A stretch of 64,000 nucleotides of DNA. It comes from Escherichia coli (GTDB taxonomy: Bacteria > Pseudomonadota > Gammaproteobacteria > Enterobacterales > Enterobacteriaceae). The DNA lies in assembly GCF_045037415.1 (NCBI RefSeq), contig NZ_CP173438.1. One strand, given 5' to 3'. A program made the translations under genes and the position numbers. The stretch's first letter is position 1. Every line of letters begins with the position of its first letter. The notes under the pieces are model-generated. The model did no database searches and had not been told where the DNA came from. It saw only the letters and a list, made by a program, of their open reading frames with translations. This document shows positions 18,471-21,800 of the stretch, one piece after another.

Positions 18471-18832
18471 CATATTTCGCATTTGAATATTGGTCAGGAT
18501 CTCACGTCTGCTTCATGTGAAACTCTTTCCTGATGATTTCTGCCGGGCTACCGGCTAGTTCTCTTTCGCAGTTTGCCAGGCGGTATAGGTATTTTCAGGA
18601 GGAAAAGACTCGGCATGTTTGGGATTATTAAGCTAACAATTCATACGATTACGGGAATGTGGGTCAGTATTGTGCTGTTCAAATTGATGACGAATGGCTG
18701 GAGTGGTTTCTACTTTCAGTGCTGTGTACTAAGCCTGGTATTCCTGACGGTTAGCTGGTTGTTGAGTGGTGAATGGTTAGCAGGAAAGAGTAAGGCTGAA
18801 CCCTCACGTTCAACCTTACTCTCATTTACACG

Positions 18833-21800
18833 TTACGCTTTTTTAAAGCGGGCAAAGAGATGTTCCACTACAACGAAAAAGACCGGAACGAAGTAAATTG
18901 CCAGCACTGTTGCGGCAAACATCCCGCCCATTACGCCGGTACCTACCGCGTTTTGCGCGCCAGAGCCGGCACCATGACTGATAACCAGCGGCAGCACGCC
19001 GAGAATAAAGGCCAGAGAAGTCATCAGGATTGGGCGTAAACGCATACGCGCTGCTTCGATGATTGCCTCTACCGGTGTTTTCCCTTCTTTCTGCATCATC
19101 TCAACGGCAAATTCGACAATCAGGATGGCGTTCTTGGCGGAAAGCCCGATGGTGGTCAGCAAACCAACCTGGAAGTAAACGTCATTACTTAAGCCGCGCA
19201 GATCGGTGGCCAGTAATGCGCCAACGACGCCTAACGGAACAACCAACATCACCGAGAACGGAATTGACCAGCTTTCATAAAGTGCGGCGAGGGCGAGGAA
19301 CACCACGACCAGTGAAATGGCATATAGCGCGGGAGCCTGATTTGAGGATAACGCTTCCTGATACGACAGTCCGGTCCATGAGTAGCCGACGCCTGCCGGA
19401 AGTTTTGCGACCAGGTCTGCCATAAATTTCATGGCGTCACCGGTACTTTTCCCGGCAGCCGCTTCACCTAAAATCTCCATTGACGGGATGCCGTTGTAGC
19501 GTTCCAGTCGCGGTGAACCATAGGTCCATTCGGTAGACGAATAGGCAGAAAGCGGTGCCATCGTGCCAGAGGCGTTGCGTACATACCATTGGTTGATGTT
19601 ATCCGGCAACATACGGAACGGCGTGCCTGCCTGGACATACACTTTTTTCACCCGCCCCTGGTTGAGGAAGTCGTTCACGTAGCTGCTGCCGAAGGCGGTG
19701 GAAATTGTCTGGTTGATATCAGACAGCGCCACACCCATAGCCTCGGCTTTCGCAGCGTTGACGTTCACTTTGAACATCGGCGTATCTTCCAGGCCGTTCG
19801 GGCGTACCCCGATGACCTGATTCGGTGATTGCGCTGCCAGTGATAACAGCTCGTTTCGCGCCTGGGTCAGTTTTTCGTGCCCCAGATTGCCGTTGTCCAG
19901 CAGTTCCATATCAAAACCTGACGCGGTACCCAGTTCAGCCACCGCGGGTAAGTTGAACGGGAAGACGACGGCTTTATTGATACTGCTTAGCGCAATCATT
20001 GCCCGCTGAATAATCGCGGTAACCGAGTTTTCCTCGCCGACACGTTCAGACCACGGCTTGAGGCTGATAAACGCCAGACCGTTGTTTTGCCCCTGACCAC
20101 TGAAGCCAAAGCCACCAACGGTAAACACCGACTGAACATTATTTTTCTCTTTTGTCAGATAATAATCCGTCACCTGTTGTAGCACTTTCGTGGTGTTAAC
20201 CATGGTTGCACCGGAAGGTAACTGCGCGGTGGTCATAAATACCCCCTGATCCTCTTCTGGTAAGAAAGAGGTCGGCGTACGCAGGAACAGCACCGCCATC
20301 CCGGCGCAAATCAGTAGGTAGACCACCATGTAGCGACCGGTACAACGCAACAGCGAGCGGGTGCTGTCGGTATAGTGCTGAGTTGATTTTTCAAACAGCG
20401 TGTTGAAGCGTGCGAACAGGGCGTTAGGTTTGTGACCGCCCTCCGGCGCGGCTTTCAGAATGGTGGCGCACAGGGCAGGGGTCAGGCTCATTGCTACAAA
20501 TACTGAAAGCAGCATGGAGGAGATCAGCGTGATGGAGAACTGGCGGTAGATCTCCCCGGTCGCACCGCTCATAAAGGCCATCGGCATAAACACTGCGGAA
20601 AGAACAACGGCAATCCCGACCAGCGCACGTTGGATCTGCCCCATCGATTTATGCGTCGCTTCCTTCGGCGGTAGCTTATCTTCCGCAATGACACGCTCGA
20701 CGTTCTCCACCACCACGATGGCGTCATCCACCAGTAACCCTATCGCCAGCACCATCCCGAACATAGTTAACGTGTTGATGGTGAAACCAACTGCCGACAA
20801 GATCGCAAACGTCCCGAGAATAACCACCGGTACGGCAATCGTCGGGATGATTGTGGCGCGGAAATTCTGCAAAAACAGATACATGACCAGGAAGACGAGG
20901 ATGATAGCCTCAACCAGCGTTTTGAAAACTTCCTGAATAGAAATTTTGATAAACGGTGTGGTGTCGTAAGGATAAACCGTCTTCAGGCTTGCAGGGAAAT
21001 AAGCCGATAAACGGTTCAGCTCCTCTTTCACCGCTCGCGAGGTATCCAGGGCGTTTGCTCCGGTAGCCAGTTTGATGGCGATCCCGGCGGCAGGTTTGCC
21101 GTTATAGCGCGCCACGGTGGAATAATCTTCCGCCCCAAGTTCGACGCGGGCGACATCACGCAGCAGCACTTGCGAACCATCTTGCTGAACTTTCAACAGG
21201 ATTTTGCCAAATTCTTCCGGCGTTTGCAGACGCGTCTGCACAATGATCGAGGCGTTCAGTTGCTGGTCTGCCGCCTGTGGCATGCCACCCAGTTGACCAC
21301 CAGAAATCTGGTTGTTTTGCACCTTAATCTGGGAAATAACATCGGAAGGTACCAGGTTATATTTATTGAGTTTTTGCGGGTCCAGCCAGATACGCATGGC
21401 GTACTCGGAACCAAAGAGCTGTACGCTACCAACGCCCGCGGTACGGCTTAGCGGGTCTTTGATATTAGACGCTACATAGTCCGCGATATCGTACTGGTTG
21501 AGGCTGCCGTTATCAGAAATAAATGCCGCTACCATCAGGATATTACTGCTCGACTTATCGACGCTAATCCCCTGCTGCTGCACCGCTTCAGGTAATGAAG
21601 GCATAGCGAGTTGCAGTTTATTTTGCACCTGAACCTGTGCGATATCAGGCGATGTCCCCGTCTCGAAGGTCAGAGTGATGGAGGCATTACCTGCCGCATC
21701 GCTGGTTGAAGACATGTACATCAGGCCATCAAGCCCATTCATATTTTGCTCAATCACCTGAGTGACCGAGTCTTCTACCGTTTGCGCATCGGCACCCGGA

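What the first reader, a model, noticed from the sequence alone, without database searches (positions are those of the whole stretch)
18615..18896. Possible small two-helix membrane protein between gadW and mdtF
An ORF (ATG at 18615, AGGAGG 13 nt upstream) encodes about 94 aa with two hydrophobic helices. It lies in the convergent gadW/mdtF gap and overlaps the last codons of mdtF on the opposite strand. It is unannotated in K-12 as far as remembered and may be spurious.
Basis: seen in the sequence. Interest (0 to 1): 0.3.

Follow-up and report, generated by a model that had tools for sequence, protein, structure and literature searches.

The report
Acid-induced small membrane protein gene (sORF15)
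The open reading frame between gadW and mdtF is a real gene for a 93-residue, two-helix inner-membrane protein that is conserved in Escherichia; it was already reported from ribosome profiling as XECs371 (2017) and sORF15 (2023), is still missing from reference annotations, and has no known function.

Summary
The ATG is at 18615, AGGAGG at 18597-18602 and the TAA at 18894-18896. The ORF has 93 codons, two hydrophobic helices and a 64-nt antisense overlap with the 3' end of mdtF. It is not annotated in RefSeq K-12 or in the strain identical to the window.

It is not spurious. In eight Escherichia lineages (E. coli, E. albertii, E. whittamii and cryptic clades) the start, stop, Shine-Dalgarno site and frame are kept without any indel. 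Variable sites fall 20/14/41 by codon position. pN/pS is 0.20 overall and 0.16 for the two-helix core, against 0.18 for neighbouring gadW; 0 of 1000 column shuffles reach that value. E. fergusonii has a 54-residue homologue at the same position, made of the core only.

It is not new. It is identical in position, and in sequence to the K-12 orthologue, to sORF15 of Schumacher et al. 2023. That study found it about 18-fold induced at pH 4.4 in Ribo-seq and detected a FLAG-tagged copy by Western blot. It also matches XECs371 of Hücker et al. 2017.

Its function is untested. The most likely reading is that it is the last gene of the gadXW transcript and encodes an inner-membrane accessory protein of the acid fitness island. 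The C-terminal tail reads through the mdtF terminator and the end of mdtF.

The parts
18597..18602 (+). Shine-Dalgarno sequence AGGAGG of the ORF, inside the block TTTTCAGGAGGAAAA that is invariant in 8 Escherichia lineages
   Evidence: position. (invariant block, while the rest of the gadW-ORF spacer has mean p-distance 0.18 and 14 gapped columns).
18615..18896 (+). Protein-coding ORF, 93 codons plus TAA; orthologue of K-12 sORF15 (NC_000913.3:3663464-3663745, minus strand) and Sakai XECs371
   Evidence: intact in K-12, 1 aa difference. (paper's Table S7: same coordinates, same sequence as the K-12 copy). (intact in six further species-level loci, L003-L008; pN/pS 0.20).
18615..18776 (+). Conserved core, codons 1-54: TM helix 1, short turn TNGWSG, TM helix 2 with vicinal Cys36-Cys37; family signature GIIKL...GWSGFxFxCC
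   Evidence: pN/pS 0.16; variable sites 16/8/32 by codon position. (motif shared with the 54-aa E. fergusonii homologue). (hydropathy, predicted helices).
18777..18832 (+). Tail part 1, codons 55-72: intergenic, reads through the mdtF terminator hairpin; weaker coding signal
   Evidence: pN/pS 0.36; variable sites 4/6/9. (database variants with frameshifted tails).
18786..18823 (-). Intrinsic terminator hairpin of mdtF (16-bp stem), lying inside ORF codons 58-70
   Evidence: dG -27.3 kcal/mol, z -6.4, 0 of 200 shuffles. (terminator-like hit). (stem kept across species, with one T-A to C-G double change in E1V33).
18833..18896 (+). Tail part 2, codons 73-93 plus stop: antisense to the last codons of mdtF, in the frame where third codon positions of both genes coincide
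   Evidence: coordinates. (5 variable sites, all at third positions, pN = 0; the sequence is fixed by MdtF, whose pN/pS is 0.02).
17742..18470 (+). gadW, the upstream gene on the same strand; probable source of the transcript that carries the ORF
   Evidence: The paper places sORF15 in the gadW 3' UTR and in a transcriptional unit with gadX and gadW. No sigma-70-like promoter was found in 18300-19000.
18542..18555 (+). Short GC hairpin GCCGG-GCTA-CCGGC followed by a T-rich tract between gadW and the ORF; a weak, probably leaky terminator or processing site
   Evidence: terminator-like hit. (fold not better than shuffles, z -0.96). (stem mostly kept, with wobble changes).

Best explanation
This is a genuine protein-coding gene restricted to the genus Escherichia. 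It is the orthologue of the published candidates sORF15 (K-12) and XECs371 (O157:H7 Sakai). It most likely works as follows.

(1) It is transcribed as the last cistron of the gadXW/gadW mRNA, by read-through of a weak hairpin after gadW. It is therefore switched on with the glutamate-dependent acid-resistance regulon. Co-induction is shown in the literature; co-transcription is inferred from position, the absence of its own promoter consensus, and the 20-nt gadW-ORF spacing in E. fergusonii.

(2) It is translated from its own invariant Shine-Dalgarno site and ATG. This is shown by Ribo-seq in two strains and by a FLAG Western blot.

(3) The product inserts in the inner membrane as a helical hairpin. 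Both ends face the cytoplasm, a short periplasmic turn (TNGWSG) joins the helices, two adjacent cysteines sit near the periplasmic end of helix 2, and a strongly basic tail (net +9) lies in the cytoplasm. This is inferred from hydropathy, the positive-inside rule and a low-confidence AlphaFold2 model.

(4) The selected functional unit is the roughly 54-residue hairpin. The 39-residue tail seen in E. coli and its closest relatives reads through the mdtF terminator and the antisense of the mdtF 3' end. Its sequence is held mainly by those two elements.

(5) Function (inferred, untested): a small accessory or regulatory subunit acting on a membrane component of the acid fitness island during severe acid stress. 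MdtEF-TolC and GadC are the obvious candidates.
For: Identity with sORF15: same K-12 coordinates and the same 93-aa sequence as the K-12 copy.

Translation and induction: Ribo-seq log2FC +4.21 (padj 1e-38) and RNA log2FC +4.03 at pH 4.4 versus 7.6, with GadW Ribo-seq at +3.03. The authors report even coverage over the ORF, and a pBAD24-sORF15:3xFLAG Western blot was positive. Independent RIBOseq in Sakai: XECs371, RPKM 23 and 49, ribosome coverage value 1.2 and 1.5, predicted inner membrane with 2 TM helices.

My own tests:
- The ORF has the same start and stop and no indel in 8 Escherichia lineages, while the upstream spacer has indels.
- Variable sites fall 20/14/41 by codon position. pN/pS is 0.20 in frame, against 0.76-1.35 in four other frames. 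The one exception is the antisense frame that shares third positions (0.26), but it carries 3 stops in every sequence. 0 of 1000 column shuffles reach the observed ratio.
- Core pN/pS is 0.16, against 0.18 for gadW in the same genomes.
- The region is present in 5414 of 5426 complete E. coli genomes. The ORF is 93 aa and intact in 5 of 6 genomes sampled down the ranking.
- A 54-aa homologue sits at the syntenic site in E. fergusonii, between a gadW-like gene and mdtF.
Against: No function has been tested, either here or in any paper found.

Native-locus protein detection has not been reported; the Western blot used an arabinose-driven plasmid.

The Shine-Dalgarno spacer of 12 nt is long.

The tail gives only a weak coding signal (pN/pS 0.36) and is absent in E. 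fergusonii, so the full 93-aa form may not be needed.

Between E. coli and E. fergusonii the core diverges much faster (40-49% identity; pN 0.34) than MdtF (93% identity; pN 0.048). This does not favour a tight, specific fit to the MdtF transmembrane surface.

No homologue exists outside Escherichia, and there is no Pfam or NCBIfam match to lean on.
Confidence: 0.9

Rival explanations
1. The ORF is translated, but the peptide itself does not matter. Ribosome traffic through the gadW 3' region acts in cis, for example by shielding the mRNA from Rho or RNases. Alternatively, the read-through transcript acts as an antisense to the 3' end of the mdtF mRNA.
For: The ORF lies in what behaves as a long gadW 3' UTR. 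It runs 64 nt into mdtF on the opposite strand and through the mdtF terminator. The tail shows weak protein-level constraint.
Against: The amino-acid sequence of codons 1-54 is under purifying selection as strong as that on gadW (pN/pS 0.16 versus 0.18). There is clear third-position bias and there are no indels across the genus. The E. fergusonii homologue stops before the terminator and does not overlap mdtF, yet keeps the hairpin motif.
Confidence: 0.06
2. It is a stress-induced membrane-perturbing peptide of the type I toxin kind, restrained by the convergent mdtF transcript acting as antisense RNA.
For: It is small, hydrophobic and stress-induced, and its 3' end overlaps a convergent transcript.
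Against: There is no dedicated antisense sRNA or known toxin family match. It has two helices plus a long basic tail, unlike the single-helix Hok, TisB and Ibs types. The gene is chromosomal, single-copy and syntenic across the genus. The published plasmid induction yielded detectable protein, and in the passages I read no toxicity was mentioned. The overlap is absent in E. fergusonii.
Confidence: 0.03
3. It is a chance ORF in a conserved non-coding region. On this view the conservation comes from RNA or DNA elements (terminators, a UTR-derived sRNA) and the ribosome footprints are noise.
For: An open run of this length arises in 3.7% of shuffles of the gap. PGAP does not call it in E. coli. 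A strong hairpin lies inside it.
Against: The three-periodic substitution pattern and low pN/pS are specific to this frame. The Shine-Dalgarno site, ATG and stop are invariant while the flanking spacer decays. There is no Rfam family here. Two independent Ribo-seq datasets and a Western blot support translation.
Confidence: 0.01

Closest known systems
sORF15 (Schumacher et al. 2023, mSystems 8:e01037-23, PMC10746267)
   Same: Same locus and same protein: K-12 3663464-3663745 minus strand, 93 aa, 2 predicted TM helices, in the gadW 3' UTR. The window copy differs from K-12 at one residue (R65C).
   Different: Nothing structural; the window carries another allele. That paper did not report selection analysis, the E. 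fergusonii short form, or the origin of the tail. Its statement of >80% homologues in Vibrio, Klebsiella, Salmonella and Enterococcus is not borne out by my exhaustive profile search, which found only Escherichia-type sequences.
XECs371 (Hücker et al. 2017, PLoS One 12:e0184119, PMC5597208)
   Same: Same ORF in E. coli O157:H7 Sakai (4405602-4405955). It was detected by RIBOseq, predicted to be an inner-membrane protein with 2 TM helices, and classed 'real'.
   Different: It was listed with a start 24 codons further upstream (117 aa). That extension is not conserved: it has indels and unrelated peptides across species. The conserved Shine-Dalgarno site and ATG support the 93-aa form.
AcrZ, the small accessory protein of the AcrB RND pump
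   Same: A small inner-membrane protein. This ORF sits next to mdtF, which encodes an RND permease of the same kind as AcrB, and it is co-induced with its stress regulon. This is a plausible functional analogy (established knowledge of AcrZ; the pump link here is inference).
   Different: No sequence relationship (no Pfam hit at E<=10). It has two helices and 93 aa, against one helix and 49 aa for AcrZ (from memory). It is encoded next to the pump gene but convergent with it. It diverges far faster than MdtF. Binding is untested.
Antiparallel overlapping / overprinted genes in E. coli (e.g. laoB, pop, ano from the same EHEC Ribo-seq programme)
   Same: The last 21 codons are encoded antisense to an established gene (mdtF), as in overprinting.
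   Different: The overlap is only terminal (64 nt). The selected part of the protein lies in intergenic DNA, and the overlap frame is the one in which synonymous sites coincide, so neither gene constrains the other much.

Membership tests
Published candidate gene sORF15 / XECs371 | Same genomic position between gadW and mdtF, on the gadW strand, with the same start and stop | tested here: met
   The K-12 orthologue of the window ORF maps to 3663464-3663745(-), which is the Table S7 coordinates. The XECs371 sequence contains the full 93 aa.
Published candidate gene sORF15 / XECs371 | Same amino-acid sequence | tested here: met
   The K-12 copy is identical to the Table S7 sequence. The window copy differs by R65C only, and its 93 aa are identical to the corresponding part of the Sakai XECs371 sequence.
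Bona fide protein-coding gene | Reading frame, start and stop conserved across diverged relatives | tested here: met
   8 Escherichia lineages have 93 codons and no indels. Five sampled E. coli genomes are intact and one is disrupted by IS3.
Bona fide protein-coding gene | Purifying selection on the encoded amino acids, specific to this frame | tested here: met
   pN/pS is 0.20 overall (core 0.16), and 0 of 1000 shuffles reach it. Other frames give 0.76-1.35 or contain stops. gadW control is 0.18.
Bona fide protein-coding gene | Experimental evidence of translation | not testable with these tools
   From the literature only: Ribo-seq in K-12 and Sakai and a FLAG Western blot from a plasmid.
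AcrZ-like RND pump accessory proteins | Sequence membership in the AcrZ family | tested here: not met
   No Pfam or NCBIfam match at E<=10. The profile search returns only its own orthologues.
AcrZ-like RND pump accessory proteins | Physical binding to the RND permease and an effect on substrate range | not testable with these tools
   Needs pull-down, two-hybrid and efflux assays with MdtF.
Type I toxin-antitoxin | Dedicated cis- or trans-antisense sRNA controlling a toxic small membrane peptide | tested here: inconclusive
   Between gadW and mdtF there is no Rfam family; the only credible hit in the scanned 16000-19500 is GadY, upstream of gadW. The only antisense partner is the mdtF mRNA 3' end, and that overlap is absent in E. 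fergusonii. Toxicity was not tested.

The most novel reading that the evidence does not exclude
The conserved 54-residue hairpin (signature GWSGFxFxCC) is a dedicated, acid-induced subunit or regulator of a membrane machine of the acid fitness island. It could act as an AcrZ-like modulator of MdtEF-TolC or as a gatekeeper of the GadC antiporter. The E. coli-type basic tail would then be a recent C-terminal extension created by reading through a terminator into the antisense of mdtF.
Probability: 0.2. Interest if true: 0.55.

Novelty: already known. Interest (0 to 1): 0.3.

Why it matters
The acid fitness island is one of the most studied loci in E. coli, yet a conserved, strongly acid-induced membrane protein within it is still absent from the K-12 reference and from the RefSeq annotations examined here.

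The evolutionary evidence here shows selection as strong as that on gadW, conservation across the genus, and a minimal 54-residue form in E. fergusonii. This lifts the candidate from 'ribosome-profiling hit' to a gene that merits annotation and a knockout study. It also points experiments at the two-helix core rather than the tail.

It is also a neat small example of a protein tail borrowed from a neighbour's terminator and antisense coding sequence.

Tried and rejected
- Pfam and NCBIfam scans at E<=10 found nothing.
- The Rfam scan of 16000-19500 found only GadY upstream of gadW, plus a sub-threshold chance miRNA hit within gadX; there is no RNA family in the gap.
- The sigma-70 promoter scan of 18300-19000 found none, so I dropped the idea of an independent promoter.
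- The word-indexed protein search and a full HMMER profile search of 1.84 billion representatives found no family beyond Escherichia. The only true distant relative is the E. fergusonii 54-mer.
- Many database 'variants' with altered tails look like homopolymer assembly errors or fragments. I tried to count the AAA->AA frameshift variant with a short megablast query. The left flank was 28 nt, so wild-type genomes also seeded. The result is still usable: none of 4938 matches is exact, while 4900 genomes match the wild-type 43-mer exactly.
- Literature searches for 'gadW/mdtF intergenic' phrases returned nothing. One search call was malformed. Weaver et al. 2019 supplements are not held. No follow-up paper on sORF15 was found.
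- I considered an AlphaFold fusion of MdtF and the ORF but did not run it, because the tool returns no interface information.
- I did not run a fold search, because a two-helix hairpin at pLDDT 64 would give meaningless matches.
- sORF14, the second published candidate in the same gap, was examined and found not to be conserved as a peptide.
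Full report
**1. What is in the sequence**

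The window is an E. coli chromosome segment, 100% identical to strain SK1144 and others over the tested 601 nt. It carries the acid fitness island in reverse orientation relative to K-12:
- gadX at 16549-17373 (+)
- GadY at 17385-17498 (-) (Rfam, 150 bits)
- gadW at 17742-18470 (+)
- mdtF at 18833-21946 (-)

In the 362-nt convergent gap there is an ORF with ATG at 18615 and TAA at 18894-18896. It has 93 codons, preceded by AGGAGG at 18597-18602. It runs 64 nt into the 3' end of mdtF on the other strand.

The protein has two hydrophobic stretches (about residues 2-24 and 31-52) and a tail of net charge +9. AlphaFold2 on a 12-sequence alignment gives helices at 2-26, 31-57 and 64-89, with mean pLDDT 64.

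Neither RefSeq K-12 (NC_000913.3) nor the annotation of SK1144 lists any feature between gadW and mdtF. The 30 sampled RefSeq hits likewise list only gadW and mdtF under the match.

As a bare ORF it is only mildly unusual: 3.7% of shuffles of the gap give an open run as long.

**2. Is it a gene? Evolutionary test**

K-12 has the same ORF with one amino-acid change and three synonymous changes.

A scan of one genome per GTDB species returned six loci: an E. coli representative, Escherichia sp. MOD1-EC7003, E. whittamii, E. albertii, 'E. coli' E69 and Escherichia sp. E1V33. In all of them the ORF has the same ATG, the same TAA, 93 codons and no indel, and the block TTTTCAGGAGGAAAA is invariant. 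By contrast, the spacer between the gadW stop and that block has mean pairwise distance 0.18 and 14 gapped columns.

For codons 1-72, the part outside mdtF:
- 75 variable sites fall 20/14/41 by codon position.
- Summed pairwise pN/pS is 0.20.
- Four of the five other frames give 0.76-1.35 and carry 3-9 stops.
- The fifth is the antisense frame that shares third positions. It gives 0.26 but has three stops in every sequence.
- 0 of 1000 column shuffles reach the observed ratio.

Split by region, the two-helix core (codons 1-54) has pN/pS 0.16 with variable sites 16/8/32. The same genomes give 0.18 for gadW and 0.02 for the last 300 codons of mdtF. The core is thus constrained at the protein level as strongly as the bona fide neighbouring regulator.

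Within E. coli, the region is present in 5414 of 5426 complete genomes. Five genomes taken at even steps down the ranking have an intact 93-aa ORF with 0-1 substitutions. A sixth (SW070912) has an IS3 element inserted after codon 41. A 43-mer around codon 57 is exact in 4900 genomes, and the one-base deletion seen in some database entries is exact in none.

**3. Family and limits**

There is no Pfam or NCBIfam match. The word-indexed search and a full HMMER profile search of 1.84 billion cluster representatives return only this gene, its fragments and frameshifted copies. The one exception is a 54-residue protein of E. fergusonii ATCC 35469 (P0050).

The E. fergusonii protein has these features:
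- It lies at the same place. It starts (GTG) 20 nt after the stop of a gadW-like gene that is 62% identical to GadW.
- It ends just before a GC-rich hairpin and does not overlap mdtF.
- It shares 40-49% identity over the hairpin with the window protein, including GIIKL, the turn GWSGF and the vicinal cysteines.

Between E. coli and E. fergusonii, pN is 0.34 for the core, 0.24 for gadW and 0.048 for mdtF. MdtF is 93% identical between the two species.

The family is therefore restricted to the genus, always sits between gadW and mdtF, and its common denominator is the roughly 54-residue two-helix hairpin.

**4. The tail**

Residues 55-93 are peculiar.
- Codons 58-70 lie on the mdtF intrinsic terminator, a 16-bp stem with dG -27.3 kcal/mol and z -6.4 on the mdtF strand.
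- Codons 73-93 are the antisense of the last mdtF codons, in the frame where third positions of the two genes coincide.
- In the overlap, all 5 variable sites are third positions and pN is zero. That is what constraint from MdtF alone would give.
- In codons 55-72 the coding signal is weak (pN/pS 0.36; sites 4/6/9).
- The terminator stem shows a paired T-A to C-G change in E1V33.

I conclude that the tail sequence is held mostly by the terminator and by mdtF, and that its presence is lineage-specific. I cannot say whether it was gained in the E. coli group or lost in E. fergusonii. Its strong positive charge fits a cytoplasmic location, so it is at least compatible with the topology of the hairpin.

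**5. What is already published**

The ORF is not new.

Schumacher et al. 2023 (PMC10746267) found it by manually inspecting the gadW 3' UTR in Ribo-seq data of K-12 under acid stress, and named it sORF15.
- Their Table S7 gives NC_000913.3:3663464-3663745(-) and the exact K-12 sequence.
- At pH 4.4 versus 7.6, Ribo-seq log2FC is 4.21 (padj 1e-38) and RNA log2FC is 4.03, with translation efficiency unchanged. GadW is at +3.03 in Ribo-seq.
- They predicted two TM helices and a possible third helix.
- They detected a 3xFLAG fusion from pBAD24 with 15 nt of native upstream sequence.
- They proposed an association with GadC and/or MdtF.

Hücker et al. 2017 (PMC5597208) had already listed the same ORF as XECs371 among 465 translated intergenic ORFs of O157:H7 Sakai.
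- RIBOseq RPKM was 23 in LB and 49 in BHI, with ribosome coverage values of 1.2 and 1.5.
- It was predicted to be an inner-membrane protein with 2 TM helices and classed 'real'.
- It was listed with a non-conserved upstream start.

I found no later paper that assigns a function.

Both papers report best hits in unrelated genera (Staphylococcus, Klebsiella, Vibrio, Enterococcus). My exhaustive search found only Escherichia-type sequences. Those hits are best explained as mislabelled or contaminated records; this is an inference.

**6. How it most likely works**

Shown:
- The ORF is translated and is induced about 18-fold at pH 4.4, in parallel with its RNA and with gadW.
- It is under purifying selection.

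Inferred:
- It is the last cistron of the gadXW/gadW transcript. There is no promoter consensus upstream. Only a weak hairpin, not better than shuffles, lies between gadW and the ORF. The spacing to gadW is 20 nt in E. fergusonii.
- The product is an N-in/C-in hairpin in the inner membrane, with a short periplasmic turn.

Hypothesis:
- It acts as a small accessory or regulatory subunit on a membrane component of the acid response. MdtEF and GadC are the obvious candidates. Its much faster divergence compared with MdtF is mild evidence against a tight, AcrZ-like fit to the pump.

Rivals:
- Translation that matters only in cis, or an antisense role against the mdtF 3' end. This is contradicted by selection on the amino acids and by the non-overlapping E. 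fergusonii form.
- A type I toxin-like peptide. There is no supporting feature beyond small size, hydrophobicity and a convergent overlap.
- A chance ORF. This is excluded by the frame-specific selection signal and the published translation data.

**7. Verdict**

It remains unannotated in the reference annotations examined here and functionally uncharacterised.

What this analysis adds:
- the genus-wide selection evidence
- the minimal E. fergusonii form
- the dissection of the tail into a terminator read-through and an antisense-of-mdtF segment
- the observation that the companion candidate sORF14 is not conserved

Interest is moderate to low: a specialist would not be surprised, but would have good reason to annotate and knock out the gene.

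Noticed in passing
window 18517-18558 (+): sORF14, the 13-aa GTG-initiated candidate published alongside sORF15, is not conserved as a peptide. Across Escherichia species its length ranges from 6 to more than 40 codons, indels shift the frame, and E69 has GTA instead of GTG. It overlaps the small GC hairpin after gadW, so its ribosome density may not reflect a functional peptide.
   Followed up: partly
window 18533-18631 (+): A 32-aa ATG ORF in another frame overlaps the Shine-Dalgarno site and start of the main ORF. It corresponds to XECs372 of Hücker 2017, which has higher RIBOseq RPKM (70 and 162) than XECs371 but was classed 'pseudo'. The footprints there may come from ribosomes initiating on the main ORF.
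   Followed up: partly
L015 3348-4576 (E. coli SW070912, NZ_CM129860.1): An IS3-family element is inserted between gadW and mdtF and cuts the ORF after codon 41. This is a natural knockout strain.
   Followed up: partly
L009 (E. fergusonii ATCC 35469, CU928158.2) 2391-6165: Upstream of the gadW-like gene, E. fergusonii has a divergent 289-aa AraC-type gene and a histidine-phosphatase gene rather than gadX and gadA. The gadW-like gene, the short ORF, mdtF, mdtE, a gadE-like gene and an hdeD-like gene are still kept together. The 54-aa ORF has no obvious Shine-Dalgarno site and starts 20 nt after the gadW-like stop, which suggests coupled translation.
   Followed up: partly
window 18786-18823; alignment: The mdtF terminator stem shows a compensatory T-A to C-G change in Escherichia sp. 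E1V33, and a shifted mismatch in E. albertii. This fits selection on the hairpin itself inside the ORF.
   Followed up: partly
window 17742-18470 versus K-12 gadW: By eye, the window's GadW differs from K-12 GadW at about a dozen residues, mostly in the N-terminal half. The downstream ORF differs at only one residue. I did not run a formal comparison.
   Followed up: no
protein database hits (e.g. P0026, P0032, P0013, P0018): Many deposited variants of the protein differ only by frameshifts in the tail at short homopolymers (AAA, T6, A5). Some of these would also break the end of mdtF, so they look like assembly errors rather than real alleles. One fragment (P0044) is named 'HxlR family transcriptional regulator' by its source, which is surely a mis-annotation.
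   Followed up: partly
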